Source: a virus
IMG/VR virus record: IMGVR_UViG_3300010409_000030
Span: 1-6,700 of that record
Length of the DNA stretch: 6,700 bases
Reading direction: 5' to 3' (one strand)
Under the pieces are notes generated by a model. The model saw only the letters and a program-made list of their open reading frames with translations, did no database searches and had not been told where the DNA came from. The position numbers were made by a program, and so were the translations under genes. Position 1 is the stretch's first letter. Every line of letters starts with the position of its first letter. This document shows, piece by piece, positions 129-6,700 of this stretch.

Positions 129-161
129 GGAAAATGTAATATGATTTTAATAGGCAATACA

Positions 162-341
162 ATGAATGAACTAAAAACGATAAAGATAACAGACGAAGCA
201 CATAGAGCACTTGTACTGGGGAAAGCGATGGACGGAATTGCAATGACAAAATGGGTAAGTACTGTAATACTAGAAGCATTACAAAAAGATTGTCCAAGAG
301 CGTATGAAGAATTAAGAAAAGAGTTTATTAAAGAAGAATGA
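162..341 (+). CDS. Small (59 aa) ribbon-helix-helix-like DNA-binding protein, a putative phage transcriptional regulator. Alternative starts are ATG 141 and TTG 120.
   Basis: Translation from 162 is MNELKTIKITDEAHRALVLGKAMDGIAMTKWVSTVILEALQKDCPRAYEELRKEFIKEE. The pattern is a short beta strand (KTIKIT), helix, G-turn and a second helix (MTKWVSTVILEALQK), typical of Arc/CopG/MetJ-type RHH proteins. It is the only credible plus-strand gene, and its stop TGA is at 339-341. Start choice is uncertain: the SD is weak (tAGGc before 162; GGAAAA before 141). Confidence 0.6.
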   Translation: MNELKTIKITDEAHRALVLGKAMDGIAMTKWVSTVILEALQKDCPRAYEELRKEFIKEE

Positions 342-1598: not shown

Positions 1599-1625
1599 TT
1601 ATAATAATCCCGTCTTAGTATGACA

Positions 1626-1657
1626 GGCGGTCATAATGGGTGTGGAGCCCGACCGCC
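1626..1657. promoter_or_regulatory. GC-rich bulged hairpin in the rep leader; candidate origin, nick-site or translational control structure
   Basis: ggcggtc(1626-1632) pairs perfectly with gaccgcc(1651-1657). An inner ggg(1638-1640)/ccc(1648-1650) gives 10 bp in total, with a 5-nt bulge (ataat) and a 7-nt loop (tgtggag). It lies 28 nt upstream of the rep ATG and downstream of the predicted rep promoter, and it is a GC island in very AT-rich DNA. Confidence 0.55.
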
Positions 1658-1666
1658 AAAACAATT

Positions 1667-1695
1667 ATTCTATATATATTACACTTTTCTATCAA
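1667..1695 (-). promoter_or_regulatory. Candidate sigma70-type promoter for rep
   Basis: On the minus strand: TTGATA (1695..1690), a 17-nt spacer, then TAGAAT (1672..1667). This predicts a start near 1660 and a leader of about 60 nt containing the 1626-1657 hairpin. Confidence 0.5.
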
Positions 1696-1750: not shown

Positions 1751-1787
1751 GTTTTTTAAAATATCGAAAAGATGATATTTTAAAAAC
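1751..1787. repeat. AT-rich inverted repeat (13-bp perfect arms, 8-nt loop) between the accessory operon and the rep promoter
   Basis: tttttaaaatatc(1753-1765) and gatattttaaaaa(1774-1786) are exact reverse complements, with loop gaaaagat. The stem can extend to g1751/c1787 with a 1-nt bulge. It starts 16 nt after the stop of the 51-aa ORF on the minus strand. No proper U-tract follows, so it is not a canonical terminator. Confidence 0.6.
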
Positions 1788-1802: not shown

Positions 1803-1958
1803 TTATAGTGATTTAAAAAATTTGTAAATCATCGGTAAAAGCCCAAGCGAGACAATAAAGTAAAAAATATAATAATTTAAATCCATGTTGACCCCTAATG
1901 TGGTGGGTAAAATAATAAGCAAAGATAGCAGTATTATTATCAGGTTTGTATTAGTCAT
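1803..1958 (-). CDS. Unannotated small ORF: 51-aa predicted two-TM membrane peptide, third gene of the accessory operon
   Basis: Hand translation of the minus strand from ATG 1958..1956 gives MTNTNLIIILLSLLIILPTTLGVNMDLNYYIFYFIVSLGLLPMIYKFFKSL, with stop TAA at 1805..1803. It has two hydrophobic stretches separated by a polar turn and a basic C-terminus. The ATG overlaps the upstream stop (ATGACTAA, 8-nt overlap), and AAGG lies 9-10 nt upstream. It is below the length cutoff of the ORF track. Confidence 0.5.
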   Translation of the reverse strand: MTNTNLIIILLSLLIILPTTLGVNMDLNYYIFYFIVSLGLLPMIYKFFKSL

Positions 1959-2157
1959 TTTTTATTACCTTTTCATAAGTGTAATTAACACTATCAATTG
2001 CCCAGTAATAGCGAATTTCTTTATTTGTGGATGACTCTGTGTCAATCCTAAGTAATGCTGTTGTTTCATCTACAGATAGTAAATGGTATCCGCAATAGGC
2101 ACATATTTTACAAAGTAGGTCAAAAACAAAATCACTTTTTTTAATAGAATTAATCAT
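1951..2157 (-). CDS. Hypothetical 68-aa protein with a C-x2-C-x2-C motif, second gene of the accessory operon
   Basis: MINSIKKSDFVFDLLCKICAYCGYHLL... The SD GGAG lies 8 nt upstream (ctaGGAGtttaataATG). The ATG begins 2 nt after the TAA of the upstream gene, which suggests translational coupling. I recognise no family. Confidence 0.6.
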   Translation of the reverse strand: MINSIKKSDFVFDLLCKICAYCGYHLLSVDETTALLRIDTESSTNKEIRYYWAIDSVNYTYEKVIKND

Positions 2158-2159
2158 TA

Positions 2160-2444
2160 TTAAACTCCTAGATCAATCGATAATAAATCACCTTGATGTG
2201 TAATTTCCAAAGCTCTACGACAAACACCATCGAGGGTTTTAATAATTTGCTCCTGACTTTGTTGTTTACCCAATAATGAAATATATTTACTTTCTAAATC
2301 CTGATATTCCTTTTGTAATTTTAAGTACTCACGTCCAGCGGTAATAAAAGTCTTAGACATAGTTACTTCATTTACTGAATTTTGTAGATCAGTAAGGAAT
2401 TGCTCAGTTTCTTTGTTTTCTTGTATACGTAGTTGAATTATCAT
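2160..2444 (-). CDS. Hypothetical 94-aa protein with an RHH-like N-terminus and a coiled-coil-like C-terminal half; first gene of the accessory operon and a putative autoregulator
   Basis: Preferred start is ATG 2444..2442, because AAGGTG lies 5 nt upstream (aaaAAGGTGttattATG). The track ORF start at 2543 adds a hydrophobic, Cys-rich 33-aa extension that overlaps the predicted promoter. The sequence MIIQLRIQENKETEQFLTDLQNSVNEVTMSKTFITAGREYLKLQKEYQDLESKYISLLGKQQSQEQ has a strand-helix-helix pattern followed by a heptad-like Q/E/K/L-rich segment. Confidence 0.6.
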   Translation of the reverse strand: MIIQLRIQENKETEQFLTDLQNSVNEVTMSKTFITAGREYLKLQKEYQDLESKYISLLGKQQSQEQIIKTLDGVCRRALEITHQGDLLSIDLGV

Positions 2445-2500
2445 AATAACACCTTTTTTAATATCAAAAATTAAGCAGGTTGAATACCTGGGACAAAAGA

Positions 2501-2529
2501 ATGATATCAAAAAAGATAAGTAATGACAA
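2501..2529 (-). promoter_or_regulatory. Candidate strong sigma70 promoter with extended -10 for the accessory operon
   Basis: On the minus strand: TTGTCA (2529..2524), a 17-nt spacer, then TGaTATCAT (TG 2509..2508, -10 at 2506..2501). This predicts a leader of about 50 nt to the ATG at 2444. The -10 lies inside a TGATATCA palindrome. Confidence 0.55.
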
Positions 2530-2548
2530 TAAAATGATATCAAAATGT

Positions 2549-2572
2549 CTACCCGGTAGAGCTACCAGGTGA
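2549..2572. promoter_or_regulatory. Alternating CTACC/GGTAG half-sites (tandem palindromes), a candidate second operator
   Basis: CTACC(2549-2553) c GGTAG(2555-2559) ag CTACC(2562-2566) a GGTGA(2568-2572). That is three perfect 5-mers in alternating orientation plus a degenerate fourth, located between repeat copies 2 and 3. Confidence 0.4.
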
Positions 2573-2585
2573 AGATAATGATATG

Positions 2586-2643
2586 AAAAACAGCGATTAG
2601 CCTGCGCGCTCCTCATGTCGCTTGCTTGCTAATCGCTGTTTTT
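2586..2643 (-). terminator. Large hairpin immediately after the zot-like stop: an intrinsic (potentially bidirectional) terminator and candidate packaging-signal hairpin
   Basis: aaaaacagcgattagc(2586-2601) and gctaatcgctgttttt(2628-2643) are perfect 16-bp reverse complements. The 26-nt loop is GC-rich (ctgcgcgctcctcatgtcgcttgctt). T-runs follow the stem on both strands. The stem begins at the zot-like stop codon (2643-2645). Confidence 0.65.
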
Positions 2644-4196: not shown

Positions 4197-5564
4197 TCAC
4201 CTAAATATAATAAAAGCGGCAATCATTAAGCCGAGGAATAAAAATAAAAGCTGAATTGGGGCCAACCCATCTTGGTAGTCAGTAAGGCAAATTTCTCTTG
4301 TAACATCGCCAAAAGTAATGAAATCAATACAAGAAGGAGTCGCAGAACTAATTAATTCAACATCGAAAATATCTTCAGCTTCAGAACGAACAAGGCCAAT
4401 TTGAGTCTTTAATCCTGCAAGTTCTGTCAAAATCTCAGCTTCAATTGAATCAGTATCAAATTCCCCGATCACCCCCGAAGGATTAAAGTTAATACAGCTA
4501 AGACCGTTAGGATCAGACTCACAAGTAACATCTTGTTCTGCGGGTTCGCCATCACTGCCCGAACTTTCCGTACTAGTGTTAGAGCTAGTTTTATTTCCTG
4601 AGGAGTCATAAGTTTCACTTGTATTGGTTGTTTGAGAACCCGACAAAGACGGGGAAGTAGTTTGAGTAATTGTGTTGTTTTTTATATCAACTACGGTGGT
4701 ATCGACTGGAGTCTGAGTGTAGTCAGTGGTAGTAGAAGATTGGACAGTTTTTGAACCGTCCGAAGCAGTTGTAATAGACGTTACTGTGGTTTCACTCTTT
4801 ATTAAACCCTGCGTATCAGTAATGGTCTTTTTATCTGTAGTTGTTTGAATAGTAATACCAGTAGATTTAGTTTCTGTTAAAACGTCAGTTTTAGTCTCTA
4901 CGATAGAACCATCGGGCAAAGATGTAGTAATAGGATCGTTAAAAGTTTGAGTTGAAGTATCTTTTGTATAGTCACCATCAGTCAATAAATTATCAGGTTC
5001 ATCTAAACTATCAGGATGAGAATCATCAAAAACCTCTTTTTCATCATCAGTAGGAAAACCTGTATATGTATATTCAATAAGTGCTGCACATTGAATCGAA
5101 GTTTTAGAAGGGTCTTTATAACAAGCGTAGGTATCACGCTCATTACTTACCACGTCACAACCTTGATAAGAATACTGATTACTAAAAGAAATTACCATTT
5201 CACCATCATTATCTCGCACAGGACTTGGAACAAACCTTTTAATAACAGTACCAGTTTCAGGACAATTAACTGGAGGAGGTGTCAAACTACATTCAAATGA
5301 ATCAGAAACATACGTACAATTTTCATCACCTAAAACCGCCATCCTAAAATAATGACCAACATCTTGGGATGGTCTAAAATAGCCCTTGGTCGGTGTGCTT
5401 GAACATTGGCGAGAATAAAGCCAAGTAAACGCCCTAGCTTCAGCATTGCAGGCAGCACGTAATGCAGTAACATTGGTGTAATATTTATTATAAGTAAGAG
5501 CAAAAGCTTCAAAAGATAAAACCGACGTAATAAGCCCAAAGAAACCCAGAAAAAAATACTTCAT
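4197..5564 (-). CDS. pIII/OrfU-like minor coat adsorption protein
   Basis: 455 aa. Signal peptide MKYFFLGFFGLITSVLSFEAFA. N-terminal domain with 8 Cys. Long Thr/Ser-rich low-complexity linker (about res 195-340, nt about 4545-4982). C-terminal domain with 4 Cys. Terminal TM anchor LLFLFLGLMIAAFIIFR. Its position between the major coat gene and the pVI-like gene is canonical. Confidence 0.8.
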   Translation of the reverse strand: MKYFFLGFFGLITSVLSFEAFALTYNKYYTNVTALRAACNAEARAFTWLYSRQCSSTPTKGYFRPSQDVGHYFRMAVLGDENCTYVSDSFECSLTPPPVNCPETGTVIKRFVPSPVRDNDGEMVISFSNQYSYQGCDVVSNERDTYACYKDPSKTSIQCAALIEYTYTGFPTDDEKEVFDDSHPDSLDEPDNLLTDGDYTKDTSTQTFNDPITTSLPDGSIVETKTDVLTETKSTGITIQTTTDKKTITDTQGLIKSETTVTSITTASDGSKTVQSSTTTDYTQTPVDTTVVDIKNNTITQTTSPSLSGSQTTNTSETYDSSGNKTSSNTSTESSGSDGEPAEQDVTCESDPNGLSCINFNPSGVIGEFDTDSIEAEILTELAGLKTQIGLVRSEAEDIFDVELISSATPSCIDFITFGDVTREICLTDYQDGLAPIQLLFLFLGLMIAAFIIFR

Positions 5565-5677: not shown

Positions 5678-5896
5678 TCAAATTTTACGGATCATTCCAA
5701 GAACTACACCAACAACCACGAAGGATGCGACAGCAGCAATTACCATTTGCCCGATTGATAAACCGGAAGTTTCCGCAGCAGTAATAGCTGTTTGAACAGC
5801 TGTATCATCAAGAGCAGCATGGGCCTGTGAAACAACAAGAGCAGAACCAGTAGCAAAAGTCGCAGCTAAACTTTTTAAGATAAAACCTTTATTCAT
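5678..5896 (-). CDS. Major coat protein (pVIII/Cep-like) precursor
   Basis: 72 aa. A 27-aa signal peptide ends AHA, then a 45-aa mature peptide ALDDTAVQTAITAAETSGLSIGQMVIAAVASFVVVGVVLGMIRKI. The mature peptide has an acidic N-terminus, a hydrophobic core and a basic C-terminus. SD AGGA lies 8 nt upstream. ATGA overlaps the upstream gene. A terminator follows. Confidence 0.85.
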   Translation of the reverse strand: MNKGFILKSLAATFATGSALVVSQAHAALDDTAVQTAITAAETSGLSIGQMVIAAVASFVVVGVVLGMIRKI

Positions 5897-6123
5897 TTTA
5901 ATTTCCTTAACATTGAGATAATAAAACCGACTGTAAGACCAGCAACAAACAATACTATGACTGCTTGAAAACCATAATCGAACGAATCGCGATCAAAACC
6001 GAAAACCTCGGCACTTACTTCATTTTTAATCTGTTCAAGAGATAAAGCCTGCCAGCCTTCAGAACAGGTTGCGGTATTTTGGGCGGTAGATACAGGATCA
6101 CCAGAACAGACTAGAAAATTCAT
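5893..6123 (-). CDS. Small C-terminally anchored protein (76 aa); candidate minor virion or assembly protein in the psh/gVII-gIX position
   Basis: One C-terminal TM (AVIVLFVAGLTVGFIISM) followed by RKLK. The ATG immediately follows the TAA of the gV-like gene (TAAATG). Assigned by position and topology only. Confidence 0.55.
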   Translation of the reverse strand: MNFLVCSGDPVSTAQNTATCSEGWQALSLEQIKNEVSAEVFGFDRDSFDYGFQAVIVLFVAGLTVGFIISMLRKLK

Positions 6124-6450: not shown

Positions 6451-6487
6451 ATTTATAACCTTTTTTATTTAATTCTATATGAGAATG

Positions 6488-6515
6488 ATTATATTAAACT
6501 GTGTAAGAATGTATA
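6488..6515 (-). promoter_or_regulatory. Candidate promoter for the gV-coat operon (copy also at 38-65)
   Basis: On the minus strand: TATACA (6515..6510), a 16-nt spacer, then a perfect TATAAT (6493..6488). This lies about 38 nt upstream of the gV-like ATG. The -35 overlaps the 8-bp tandem repeats. Confidence 0.4.
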
Positions 6516-6611
6516 AGTGTCAAAGTGTAAAAGTATTAAAGAAAATTAGCAAACAATAATATTAATAATTTGTATAATGGAAAATGTAATATGATTTTAA
6601 TAGGCAATACA

Positions 6612-6700
6612 ATGAATGAACTAAAAACGATAAAGATAACAGACGAAGCACATAGAGCACTTGTACTGGGGAAAGCGATGGACGGAATTGCAATGACAAA
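6612..6700 (+). CDS. Duplicate 5-prime part of the RHH-like gene (same gene as 162..341), truncated by the window end
   Basis: It lies inside the exact terminal overlap and is not an independent locus. Confidence 0.6.
   Translation, partial: MNELKTIKITDEAHRALVLGKAMDGIAMT

What the first reader, a model, noticed from the sequence alone, without database searches (positions are those of the whole stretch)
1803..2589. Self-contained three-gene accessory operon of unknown function in the ctxAB-equivalent slot
A strong hairpin terminator follows zot. Downstream of it, and before the rep promoter, sit three tightly coupled minus-strand genes.
- A 94-aa protein with an RHH-like N-terminus and a coiled-coil tail.
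- A 68-aa protein with CKICAYC.
- A 51-aa two-TM peptide.

Gene spacing is a 2-nt gap and then an 8-nt overlap. The operon has its own near-consensus extended -10 promoter. That promoter is embedded in repeated palindromes, which is the arrangement expected for autoregulation by the RHH protein.

In CTXphi the region after zot carries the cargo toxin genes. Inoviruses are also known to carry toxin-antitoxin and superinfection-exclusion cargo. An RHH regulator followed by small effectors, ending in a membrane peptide, fits three readings: a TA-like or abortive module, an exclusion module, or a lysogeny/maintenance switch.

I recognise no family for any of the three proteins. By eye the region looks more AT-rich than the core genes.

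An alternative reading follows from the absence of a canonical terminator between the operon and rep. It may be the regulatory module of the phage, reading through into rep, and not cargo.
Basis: partly seen in the sequence, partly recalled or inferred. Interest (0 to 1): 0.8.

Follow-up and report, generated by a model that had tools for sequence, protein, structure and literature searches.

The report
Phage regulator operon with phased operators
The three small genes after zot are real, but the first is a conserved and so far unnamed filamentous-phage regulator that most likely shuts off its own promoter through four evenly spaced palindromes, and the other two are a variable payload of unknown function, not a toxin cargo or toxin-antitoxin unit.

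Summary
The window is a complete 6,450-bp circular inovirus. The described anatomy is correct: a strong hairpin after zot, then three coupled minus-strand genes of 94, 68 and 51 aa.

The 94-aa protein is not an orphan. It belongs to an unnamed family of about 46 proteins. Members always sit after the morphogenesis genes and before rep, in inoviruses with two different Rep types. One also sits in a 3.85-kb plasmid-like replicon, and one as a solo copy in a Pseudomonas aeruginosa chromosome.

Every member is preceded by four palindromes near -142, -98, -65 and -21, spaced 44/33/44 bp. Site 3 forms the extended -10. The palindrome type follows the first seven residues of the protein in all 16 lineages: Arg6 goes with GATATC, Lys4 with GGTACC. 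The predicted fold has a ribbon-helix-helix-like N-terminus followed by a 50-residue helix. No sequence or fold match is significant.

The likeliest function is an autorepressor heading the replication and regulatory module. The genes downstream of it vary between phages. The 68-aa gene has no relatives and is absent from the closest relative. Small membrane peptides recur in this position.

The cargo and toxin-antitoxin readings are not supported. The regulatory reading is partly supported, although rep has its own conserved promoter.

The parts
2586..2643 (-). Hairpin directly after the zot stop codon: 16-bp perfect arms, a 26-nt G+C-rich loop, then T5. It probably terminates the morphogenesis operon and is a candidate packaging signal.
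   Evidence: -30.8 kcal/mol, z = -6.6. Equivalent hairpins with 26-28-nt loops follow the last morphogenesis gene in L001, L006 and L007. Between the window and L001 the stems differ completely while the loop GCGACATGAGGAGCG.GCAGG is conserved.
2579..2586 (.). Operator site 1 (TCATATCA on the coding strand, one mismatch to TGATATCA), about -142 from the ATG.
2552..2569 (.). CCTGGTAG-CT-CTACCGGG inverted repeat in the middle of the 44-bp spacer between sites 1 and 2. Function unexplained.
   Evidence: Read. An ACCWGGT-type element sits at the same place in both operator classes.
2535..2542 (.). Operator site 2 (exact TGATATCA), about -98.
2501..2529 (-). Promoter of the operon: -35 TTGTCA, 17-nt spacer, extended -10 TG-a-TATCAT.
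   Evidence: A -35-like hexamer (TTGACA, TTTACA, TTTACT, TTGACG) lies 16-17 nt upstream of site 3 in relatives, and site 3 plus the next T reads TGnTAnnAT in 12 of the 14 loci examined (L012 reads TGGTACCTT and L005 CGGTACCGT).
2502..2509 (.). Operator site 3 (exact TGATATCA), about -65. It is the extended -10 element.
2476..2490 (.). CAGGT-ATTCA-ACCTG inverted repeat between sites 3 and 4, inside the predicted 5' untranslated region.
   Evidence: The fold is not better than shuffles (z = -0.24). Conserved element type.
2459..2466 (.). Operator site 4 (TGATATTA on the coding strand, one mismatch), about -21, next to the Shine-Dalgarno sequence.
2160..2444 (-). The 94-aa regulator. It has an N-terminal strand MIIQLRI, helix 11-24, helix 29-81 (coiled coil) and a conserved C-terminal LEITHQGDLL motif.
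   Evidence: Family of about 46 proteins. AlphaFold2 model with pLDDT 87. dN/dS 0.11. N-terminus and operator covary.
1951..2157 (-). The 68-aa protein with CKICAYCGYH. It is an orphan and part of the variable payload.
   Evidence: Only itself found among 5.8 billion proteins. Absent from relative L001. No family match.
1803..1958 (-). The 51-aa peptide with two hydrophobic segments. It is part of the variable payload.
   Evidence: L001 has a 54-aa two-segment peptide at the same place with weak similarity (z = 2.3). Unrelated 40-55-aa membrane peptides follow the regulator in L033, L034 and L036.
1753..1786 (.). Perfect 13-bp inverted repeat with an 8-nt loop between the operon and rep. Conserved with L001. 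Function unknown.
1667..1695 (-). rep's own promoter: TTGATA, 17 nt, TAGAAT. It contains AAAGTGTAA motifs.
   Evidence: (conserved in L006 and L007).

Best explanation
The 94-aa gene encodes a sequence-specific DNA-binding regulator of a conserved, unnamed family linked to filamentous phages.

Proposed mechanism.
- Its first seven residues form the DNA-reading strand of a ribbon-helix-helix-like dimer.
- The 50-residue helix that follows probably joins dimers into higher oligomers.
- The protein binds four TGATATCA palindromes spaced 44/33/44 bp. These spacings are whole helical turns, so all four sites face the same side of the DNA.
- Site 3 is the extended -10 of the operon's promoter and site 4 abuts the ribosome-binding site. 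Binding therefore represses the protein's own operon.

Place in the genome.
- This cassette opens the replication and regulatory module of the phage, just after the terminator of the morphogenesis operon.
- The genes that follow the regulator in the same transcript are a lineage-specific payload. Here they are a 68-aa cysteine-containing orphan and a 51-aa inner-membrane peptide. Their level is set by the regulator, and their functions are unknown.

Shown: the gene anatomy, the family, the synteny, the array and its spacing, the covariation between N-terminus and operator, and purifying selection.

Inferred: DNA binding, repression, oligomerisation, and co-transcription of the three genes.
For: 1. 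Family and selection.
- A profile search finds 46 proteins of 83-137 aa with the same layout and a near-invariant C-terminal motif.
- dN/dS is 0.11 against the 74%-identical relative.

2. Fixed position.
- The gene lies after Zot or the secretin and before rep in L005-L008, L032, L035 and L036.
- This holds whether rep is Rep_1 or the gpII type (Phage_CRI plus G2P_X_C).
- It holds whether the reverse-strand gene is RHH-like or HTH-like.
- One member lies in a 3,848-bp Rep_1 replicon with no virion genes.

3. Array.
- Four palindromes lie at about -142, -98, -65 and -21 in nearly every locus.
- Six are present in L006 and L007, with identical 44/32/44/32/42 spacing, although those two proteins are only about 40% identical to the window's.

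4. Specificity follows the N-terminal strand.
- Nine lineages with Arg6 have GATATC-type sites. One of them, with Asn4, has the variant GCTATC.
- Seven lineages with Lys4 and no Arg6 have GGTACC. There are no exceptions.
- Five further loci were fetched to test the Arg6 rule, one of them (L035) carrying Asn4 in place of Gln4. All five carry GATATC-type sites; L035 has the GCTATC variant.
- L027, L032, L033 and L034 are 47-64% identical in residues 11 to the end to GGTACC-class proteins, and only 19-37% identical to the AT-rich GATATC class. They still use GATATC.

5. Promoter overlap. Site 3 plus the following T reads TGnTAnnAT in 12 of the 14 loci examined, the exceptions being L012 (TGGTACCTT) and L005 (CGGTACCGT). 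A -35-like hexamer lies 16-17 nt upstream in many of them and matches best in the AT-rich clade.

6. Fold.
- The AlphaFold2 model has pLDDT 87: an extended stretch 1-10, helix 11-24 and helix 29-81.
- Ser30 at the start of the second helix is nearly invariant.
- The top PDB fold ranks are RHH-type domains: TCP, ParD2, ParD and MazE-mt1.
Against: - No statistically significant link to any RHH family or structure was found. Foldseek E-values are all 2.3 or higher. PDB profile searches return only coiled-coil noise. Pfam RHH_1 and PSK_trans_fac are hit by 1-3 members at E of 0.01-0.05.
- No binding, transcript or repression data exist.
- An ACCWGGT-type element in each 44-bp spacer is conserved across both operator classes and is not explained by this model.
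- The invariant C-terminal motif implies a conserved partner that has not been identified.
- The covariation test is not corrected for phylogeny.
Confidence: 0.68

Rival explanations
1. Copy-number control in the CopG-RepB manner. The operon promoter also drives rep by read-through, so the regulator's main task is to set the Rep level, and the two small genes are passengers.
For: - rep is downstream on the same strand in every Rep_1 relative.
- No convincing intrinsic terminator lies in 1599-1802.
- A family member is kept in a 3.85-kb Rep_1 mini-replicon.
- In pMV158, copG and repB are co-transcribed from a promoter that CopG represses (PMC2724298).
- The authors of PMBT54 proposed a similar role for its omega-like ORF13, which sits in the same slot (PMC10534721).
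Against: - rep has its own promoter (TTGATA, 17 nt, TAGAAT), conserved in L006 and L007. It carries a different repeated motif, AAAGTGTAA, which also occurs in the intergenic region between ssb and the reverse gene.
- No TGATATCA site lies near rep.
- In gpII-type relatives, reverse-strand genes separate the regulator from rep.
- This reading is compatible with the best explanation and would add to it.
Confidence: 0.3
2. Toxin-antitoxin or abortive module. The 94-aa protein is an RHH antitoxin, and the 68-aa protein, the 51-aa membrane peptide, or both are its toxins.
For: - The gene order is regulator first, small effectors after, with tight coupling.
- Small hydrophobic peptides recur after the regulator in five lineages.
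- The top fold ranks include the RHH antitoxins ParD and MazE.
Against: - The downstream genes are not homologous between family members, while the regulator's C-terminus is nearly invariant. A toxin-neutralising tail would be expected to co-vary with its toxin.
- The 68-aa gene is simply missing in the closest relative.
- Solo copies of the regulator exist without a partner.
- PADLOC, Pfam, PHROGs and NCBIfam give no hit.
Confidence: 0.07
3. The 51-aa peptide is a superinfection-exclusion or host-modulating membrane peptide, in the manner of PfsE of Pf phages, expressed at a level set by the regulator.
For: - Unrelated 40-55-aa membrane peptides recur directly after the regulator in W, L001, L033, L034 and L036.
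- There is a precedent for a very small hydrophobic inovirus protein that blocks type IV pili (PMC8764522).
Against: - There is no sequence similarity to anything.
- Seven other lineages carry non-membrane proteins at this position instead.
- This reading is entirely by analogy.
Confidence: 0.2
4. The 51-aa peptide is a displaced virion or assembly protein resembling pVII or pIX, not an accessory gene.
For: - The window has only one small ORF (76 aa) between ssb and the major coat gene.
- L006 has an extra 42-aa ORF there and no membrane peptide after its regulator.
- L008 has three 44-aa ORFs there and a non-membrane protein after its regulator.
Against: - The case rests on three genomes.
- The gene sits outside the structural operon, behind a terminator and a repressed promoter.
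- The peptide has two hydrophobic segments, whereas pVII and pIX of Ff phages have one (from established knowledge of those phages).
Confidence: 0.12
5. The palindrome array is not mainly an operator. It is a centromere-like, iteron-like or replication-control site, and the protein acts in replicon maintenance.
For: - There are four to seven phased sites over 130-260 bp.
- The cassette is retained in a minimal Rep_1 replicon.
- Omega and ParG are RHH proteins that bind arrays as centromere proteins (from established knowledge).
Against: - No ParA-type partner is present in the 6.45-kb genome.
- Site 3 coincides with the -10 and site 4 with the ribosome-binding region at fixed distances from the ATG in all loci, which is the signature of an operator.
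- The array is independent of Rep type, so it is not a Rep-binding origin.
Confidence: 0.15

Closest known systems
CopG (RepA) of the rolling-circle plasmid pMV158
   Same: It is a small RHH-type repressor encoded just upstream of the gene for a rolling-circle initiator, on the same strand. It binds a palindromic operator that overlaps its own promoter (PMC2724298).
   Different: - CopG is 45 aa with no coiled coil. It binds one pseudo-palindrome and spreads from it, and copG-repB is a single transcript.
- Here the protein is 94 aa with a 50-residue helix and four discrete sites spaced 44/33/44 bp. One or two extra genes are inserted, and rep has its own promoter.
- There is no detectable sequence homology.
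Mnt repressor of phage P22
   Same: The architecture is alike: an N-terminal RHH DNA-binding domain followed by a C-terminal coiled coil that joins two dimers, so that two half-operators are read together (from established knowledge).
   Different: Mnt reads one 17-bp operator. Here the paired sites are 44 bp apart. There is no sequence similarity, and oligomerisation here is only inferred.
Omega repressor of pSM19035, and the omega-like ORF13 of Pseudomonas phage PMBT54
   Same: - PMBT54 has the closest Rep among described phages (34% identity).
- It shares the genome plan, including a reverse-strand RHH-like gene after rep.
- It carries a 63-aa RHH gene in the same slot just upstream of rep, which its authors suggested acts in episome maintenance.
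   Different: - ORF13 is not a member of this family and lacks the coiled coil.
- Omega binds contiguous 7-bp heptads, not spaced 8-bp palindromes.
- Neither phage protein has been tested.
The ctxAB slot and RstR/RS2 module of CTXphi
   Same: The position is the same, after zot and before the replication genes. Small regulators control the replication module.
   Different: - ctxAB is lineage-specific cargo. The 94-aa gene is conserved across lineages with its cis-array.
- RstR is an HTH repressor transcribed divergently from rstA. The nearer analogue of RstR here is the reverse-strand ORF at 141-341.
PfsE of Pf4/Pf5
   Same: It is a very small hydrophobic protein encoded by an inovirus that acts on the host envelope to prevent superinfection (PMC8764522). 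This is a possible analogue for the 51-aa peptide.
   Different: PfsE is about 30 aa, has one hydrophobic segment, and lies in the structural region. There is no sequence similarity.

Membership tests
Ribbon-helix-helix (CopG/Arc/MetJ) superfamily, for the 94-aa protein | An N-terminal beta-strand followed by two helices, with a Ser/Thr/Asn cap at the start of the second helix. | tested here: met
   - The AlphaFold2 model has pLDDT 87: extended 1-10, helix 11-24, a four-residue turn, then a helix from residue 29.
- Ser30 is conserved in at least 90% of members.
- The strand itself cannot form in a monomer model.
Ribbon-helix-helix (CopG/Arc/MetJ) superfamily, for the 94-aa protein | Significant sequence or fold similarity to known RHH domains. 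| tested here: inconclusive
   - Foldseek top ranks are RHH-type domains (TCP, ParD2, ParD, MazE-mt1), but E-values are 2.3-4.2 and target-normalised TM-scores for those domains are 0.38-0.59.
- Pfam RHH_1 and PSK_trans_fac are hit by 1-3 of 45 members at E of 0.01-0.05.
- PDB profile searches give nothing.
Ribbon-helix-helix (CopG/Arc/MetJ) superfamily, for the 94-aa protein | Residues of the N-terminal strand determine which repeated or palindromic DNA site is read. | tested here: met
   - Operator type follows residues 4 and 6 in 16 of 16 lineages.
- This includes four lineages whose remaining sequence belongs to the other class.
- The evidence is comparative, not biochemical.
Ribbon-helix-helix (CopG/Arc/MetJ) superfamily, for the 94-aa protein | Dimer with an intertwined antiparallel beta-ribbon inserted in the major groove. 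| not testable with these tools
   Only monomer prediction was available. It needs multimer prediction or an experimental structure.
Type II toxin-antitoxin module | A cognate toxin gene conserved next to the antitoxin. | tested here: not met
   - Downstream genes are unrelated between family members.
- The 68-aa gene is absent in L001.
- A solo regulator exists in P. aeruginosa.
Type II toxin-antitoxin module | The toxin belongs to a recognisable toxin family or is toxic when expressed. | tested here: not met
   There are no Pfam, PHROG, NCBIfam or PADLOC matches for the 68-aa and 51-aa proteins. Toxicity itself was not testable.
Inovirus cargo ('moron') such as ctxAB | Lineage-specific presence, and absence from close relatives. 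| tested here: not met
   - This verdict is for the 94-aa gene, which is conserved with its array in all relatives examined.
- The feature is met for the 68-aa gene.
- It is met loosely for the 51-aa gene.
Inovirus cargo ('moron') such as ctxAB | Composition or codon usage distinct from the core genome. | tested here: not met
   Total G+C is lower, but GC3 is within the range of the core genes.
CopG-RepB-type copy-control operon | The regulator and the initiator are co-transcribed from the promoter that the regulator represses. | tested here: inconclusive
   - In W they are on the same strand with no clear terminator between them.
- rep has its own conserved promoter.
- In gpII-type relatives, reverse-strand genes intervene.
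- Transcript mapping is needed.

The most novel reading that the evidence does not exclude
The 94-aa family and its four-site phased palindrome array form a portable regulatory cassette that has not been described.

- It moves between filamentous phages with unrelated initiators, mini-replicons and bacterial chromosomes.
- Its DNA specificity is reprogrammed by two residues of the N-terminal strand: Gln/Ile4 plus Arg6 read GATATC, and Lys4 reads GGTACC.
- The 50-residue coiled coil and the invariant tail (EKTGQGDLL in the family consensus, EITHQGDLL in the window's protein) would bridge palindromes 44 bp apart and recruit a conserved partner that is still unknown.
- Solo chromosomal copies, for example in P. 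aeruginosa, could then act as immunity determinants against incoming phages of the same operator class.
Probability: 0.25. Interest if true: 0.65.

Novelty: new variant of a known kind. Interest (0 to 1): 0.45.

Why it matters
Regulation of episomal, non-integrating filamentous phages is poorly understood. Only one GenBank phage carries a member of this family, and there it is annotated as hypothetical.

- The comparative data give a ready-made and testable operator code: two residues against two central base pairs.
- They give a defined promoter architecture for a group of inoviruses found in marine and metagenomic samples and in Pseudomonas.
- They also mark the position just downstream of the regulator as a hot spot where these phages swap small payload genes: membrane peptides, small P-loop proteins and zinc-ribbon proteins. 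That is the place to look for exclusion or host-modulating functions.

It is not a new toxin locus, and nothing here points to a new kind of mechanism.

Tried and rejected
DNA similarity and Rep-based searches.
- Megablast of the whole window against GenBank phages found nothing.
- A Rep-based scan of IMG/VR found nothing.
- A first IMG/VR scan with the family alignment failed, because confirmation uses the divergent first sequence. Reordering the alignment gave 19 loci.

Structure and family searches for the 94-aa protein.
- AlphaFold2 with two sequences gave a poor model (pLDDT 62) and was repeated with 45 sequences.
- Profile searches of the PDB with the whole protein and with the N-terminal 46 residues gave only coiled-coil noise or nothing.
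- hhalign against the omega-like ORF13 of PMBT54 gave nothing.

Ideas considered and rejected.
- A XerCD/dif-like attachment site: no hit above chance.
- The palindromes as Rep_1 nick sites, because TTGATA resembles the pC194/phiX174 nick site recalled from memory. This was rejected because the array keeps its form with gpII-type Reps, and because Rep_1 phages of the other class use GGTACC.
- The reverse-strand RHH-like protein as the palindrome binder. This was rejected because L007 has an HTH-type reverse gene yet the same TGATATCA array as L006.
- The spacer hairpin at 2476-2490 as an attenuator: it folds no better than shuffles.

Searches for the 51-aa peptide. tblastn against phages found nothing.
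Full report
**What the window is.** Bases 1-250 repeat exactly at 6451-6700, so the window is one complete circular genome of 6,450 bp. Two independent assemblies carry the same genome. All core genes are on the minus strand. In order they are:
- a single-strand DNA-binding protein (6450-6124);
- a 76-aa protein;
- the major coat protein (5896-5678);
- a 455-aa pIII-like protein;
- a pVI-like protein;
- Zot (3872-2643);
- the hairpin;
- the three small genes;
- a Rep_1-type initiator (1598-342).

One small plus-strand ORF (141-341) lies between rep and the DNA-binding protein gene.

**Check of the observation.** All stated features are present.
- The ORFs are at 2444-2160, 2157-1951 and 1958-1803, with a 2-nt gap and an 8-nt overlap. 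Each has a Shine-Dalgarno-like sequence.
- The post-zot hairpin has 16 perfect pairs and folds at -30.8 kcal/mol (z = -6.6).
- The promoter TTGTCA-17-TGaTATCAT is there. Promoter-like matches in the window as a whole are at chance level, so I rely on conservation instead.
- The palindromes number four, not two, and are spaced 44/33/43 bp. The exact 8-mer TGATATCA occurs nowhere else in the genome.
- The region is more AT-rich than the core, but third-position G+C is not different, so composition does not indicate foreign origin.

**The 94-aa protein has a family.**
- A single-sequence search found only one relative: 74% identity, on a 1.5-kb contig.
- An exhaustive profile search, followed by a second profile search, found 46 proteins of 83-137 aa.
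- They share M-(hydrophobic)x-K/Q-x-x-D near the N-terminus, a near-invariant Ser-Lys-Ala at the start of the second helix, a heptad-like central stretch, and a C-terminal IEGARSAAALLLEKTGQGDLL. In the window's AT-rich clade this reads LD..CR..LEIT.QGDLL.
- None has a Pfam domain or an informative name.
- Among 50,697 GenBank phage records only 'Phage blackswan219-6' has one, annotated as hypothetical.
- The gene is under purifying selection, with dN/dS 0.11.

**Synteny.**
- In every contig long enough to judge, the family gene is the first gene after the morphogenesis module (Zot, or the secretin in L006). It lies upstream of rep on the same strand, with one or two small genes in between.
- The initiator can be Rep_1 (the window, L006, L032; L008 shares the genome plan, but its rep ORF is cut by the contig ends and has no Pfam call) or the gpII type (L018, L028, L033, L035).
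- The reverse-strand small gene can be RHH-like (the window, L006, L008, PMBT54) or HTH-like (L007).
- A P. aeruginosa 'plasmid' of 7,695 bp is a head-to-tail dimer of a 3,848-bp unit. The unit carries a Rep_1-like rep, a family member and no virion genes.
- A 1.3-kb piece holding only the array and the gene sits in a P. aeruginosa chromosome, 99.5% identical to a prophage.
- The cassette is therefore a conserved and portable regulatory unit, not cargo.

**The cis-array.**
- Upstream of each family gene there are four 8-bp palindromes at about -142, -98, -65 and -21 from the ATG, spaced 44/33/44 bp.
- L006 and L007 have six with identical 44/32/44/32/42 spacing. Some Pseudomonas prophages have up to seven. 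L027/L028 show 44/24/44 and L031 shows 44/22/44.
- These spacings are close to whole numbers of helical turns.
- Site 3 followed by T reads TGnTAnnAT, an extended -10, in 12 of the 14 loci examined; L012 reads TGGTACCTT and L005 CGGTACCGT. A -35-like hexamer lies 16-17 nt upstream and matches well in the AT-rich clade.
- Site 4 abuts the ribosome-binding site.
- This is the layout expected for a promoter that is shut off by the protein it encodes.

**Protein and operator covary.**
- Proteins beginning M(I/V)IQLR, MVINIR, MHLIVR or MNILIR all have Arg at residue 6 and have GATATC-type sites. The Asn4 variant has GCTATC.
- Proteins beginning ML(I/V/L)K(I/L) have GGTACC.
- The split is nine lineages against seven, with no exception.
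- I tested this as a prediction on five further loci, chosen because their products carry Arg6; one of them, L035, has Asn4 in place of Gln4. All five have GATATC-type sites, and L035 has the GCTATC variant.
- L027, L032, L033 and L034 are 47-64% identical over residues 11 to the end to GGTACC-class proteins, but only 19-37% identical to the AT-rich GATATC class. L032 and L025 are 64% identical there and differ in the strand, MVIQLRD against MLIKITD.
- Specificity therefore follows the first seven residues and not overall relatedness. This is what an RHH beta-ribbon reader would give. The test is not corrected for phylogeny.

**Fold.**
- With 45 sequences AlphaFold2 gives pLDDT 87: an extended N-terminus, helix 11-24, a short turn, helix 29-81 and a short terminal helix.
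- Foldseek finds nothing significant. The best PDB ranks are RHH-type domains at E of 2-4.
- Sequence profiles do not reach any RHH family or structure.
- I therefore call the protein RHH-like and do not file it as a proven member.

**Genes 2 and 3.**
- The 68-aa protein has no relative among 5.8 billion proteins.
- In the closest relative it is absent: there the regulator is followed directly by a 54-aa peptide with two hydrophobic segments.
- That peptide resembles the window's 51-aa peptide only weakly (z = 2.3; 46 of 2,000 shuffles score as well).
- Across lineages the position after the regulator holds unrelated genes:
  - membrane peptides of 40-55 aa in five lineages;
  - related small P-loop proteins in two (31% identity, E = 5e-12);
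  - a CxxC...CxxC protein in one;
  - other small proteins in the rest.
- No toxin, defence or phage family matches the window's two proteins.
- The regulator's tail is invariant while its neighbours change. This argues against a toxin-antitoxin pairing.

**Relation to rep.**
- No convincing terminator lies between the 51-aa gene and rep, so read-through is possible.
- rep nevertheless has its own promoter (1695-1667), and the leader just upstream of its start codon holds a stem (GGCGGTC ... GACCGCC). Both are conserved in L006 and L007.
- That promoter carries AAAGTGTAA motifs. The same motif also occurs in the intergenic region between the DNA-binding protein gene and the reverse-strand ORF, in both the window and L006.
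- The reverse-strand 66-aa protein is 68% identical to its L006 counterpart and related to ORF2 of PMBT54. It is the more likely regulator of rep and of the structural operon.

**Comparison with what is known.**
- Functionally the nearest models are CopG of pMV158 (an RHH repressor upstream of a rolling-circle initiator gene, PMC2724298) and Mnt of P22 (RHH plus coiled coil).
- The nearest described phage, PMBT54, has 34% Rep identity and an unrelated omega-like RHH gene in the same slot. It is untested.
- The window's protein differs from all of these in several ways: no detectable homology, the long helix, the invariant tail, the four-site 44/33/44 array, and the variable genes inserted behind it.

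**Verdict.** The cargo and toxin-antitoxin interpretation is not supported for the operon as a unit. The regulatory interpretation is supported for gene 1. Genes 2 and 3 are a variable payload of unknown function. This is a new, uncharacterised variant of a familiar kind of small autoregulator, and it is of moderate interest.

Noticed in passing
window 141-341 (+), with motifs at 63-80, 1679-1687 and 1695-1703: A reverse-strand 66-aa RHH-like ORF lies between rep and the DNA-binding protein gene. It is conserved: 68% identical in L006 and related to PMBT54 ORF2 'MatP_C'. An AAAGTGTAA motif occurs both in rep's promoter and in the intergenic region this ORF shares with the structural operon, in the window and in L006. 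This protein may be the repressor of rep and of the structural genes.
   Followed up: partly
window 2586-2643; L001 726-789; L007 2974-3037; L006 1472-1523: The hairpin after the last morphogenesis gene recurs with 26-28-nt loops. Between the window and L001 the 16-18-bp stems are entirely different but perfect, while the loop GCGACATGAGGAGCG.GCAGG is conserved. This suggests a role beyond termination, for example as a packaging signal.
   Followed up: partly
window 2552-2569 and 2476-2490; the same position in L001, L006, L008, L012-L034: An ACCWGGT or CCWGG-N5-8-CCWGG element sits in the middle of each 44-bp spacer between paired palindromes, in both operator classes. The palindrome-binding model does not explain it.
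   Followed up: no
window 1753-1786: A perfect 13-bp inverted repeat (TTTTTAAAATATC / GATATTTTAAAAA) with an 8-nt loop lies upstream of rep's promoter. It sits inside the only stretch downstream of the regulator gene that is conserved with L001 (44 nt, 89% identity). Function unknown.
   Followed up: no
L031 (NZ_CP124661.1, P. aeruginosa 'plasmid'): This 7,695-bp record is a head-to-tail dimer of a 3,848-bp unit. The unit carries a Rep_1-like rep, a family member with four GGTACC sites (44/22/44), a classical 106-aa RHH protein, and no virion genes. It could be a mini-replicon or a miniphage.
   Followed up: partly
L010 7614-8934 (P. aeruginosa chromosome contig RWSN01000022.1): A solo 1.3-kb fragment holding the operator array and the family gene is 99.5% identical to a prophage (L014) and has no other inovirus genes nearby. 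The protein cluster has 107 member sequences. It could be a retained immunity determinant or a remnant.
   Followed up: partly
L007 3968-4393 and L035 1685-2053: Related small P-loop proteins of 141 and 122 aa (31% identity, E = 5e-12, Walker A GxxGxGKT) occupy the slot between the regulator and rep in two phages with different Rep types.
   Followed up: no
L035 upstream of 1419: A family member with Asn instead of Gln at residue 4 (MVINIRL) has four sites of the asymmetric variant GCTATC/GATAGC in place of GATATC. This may be a third operator specificity.
   Followed up: no
window 5678-6123, compared with L006 4546-5088: The window has only one small ORF (76 aa) between the DNA-binding protein gene and the major coat gene. 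L006 has an additional 42-aa ORF there. The window may lack, or encode elsewhere, one of the small virion-tip proteins.
   Followed up: partly
window 1609-1660; L006 about 2555-2620; L007 about 4440-4490: A conserved stem (GGCGGTC...GACCGCC in the window) lies in the leader just upstream of rep's start codon in three phages. The stem sequence differs between them but the position is the same. It could control translation or be an antisense target.
   Followed up: no
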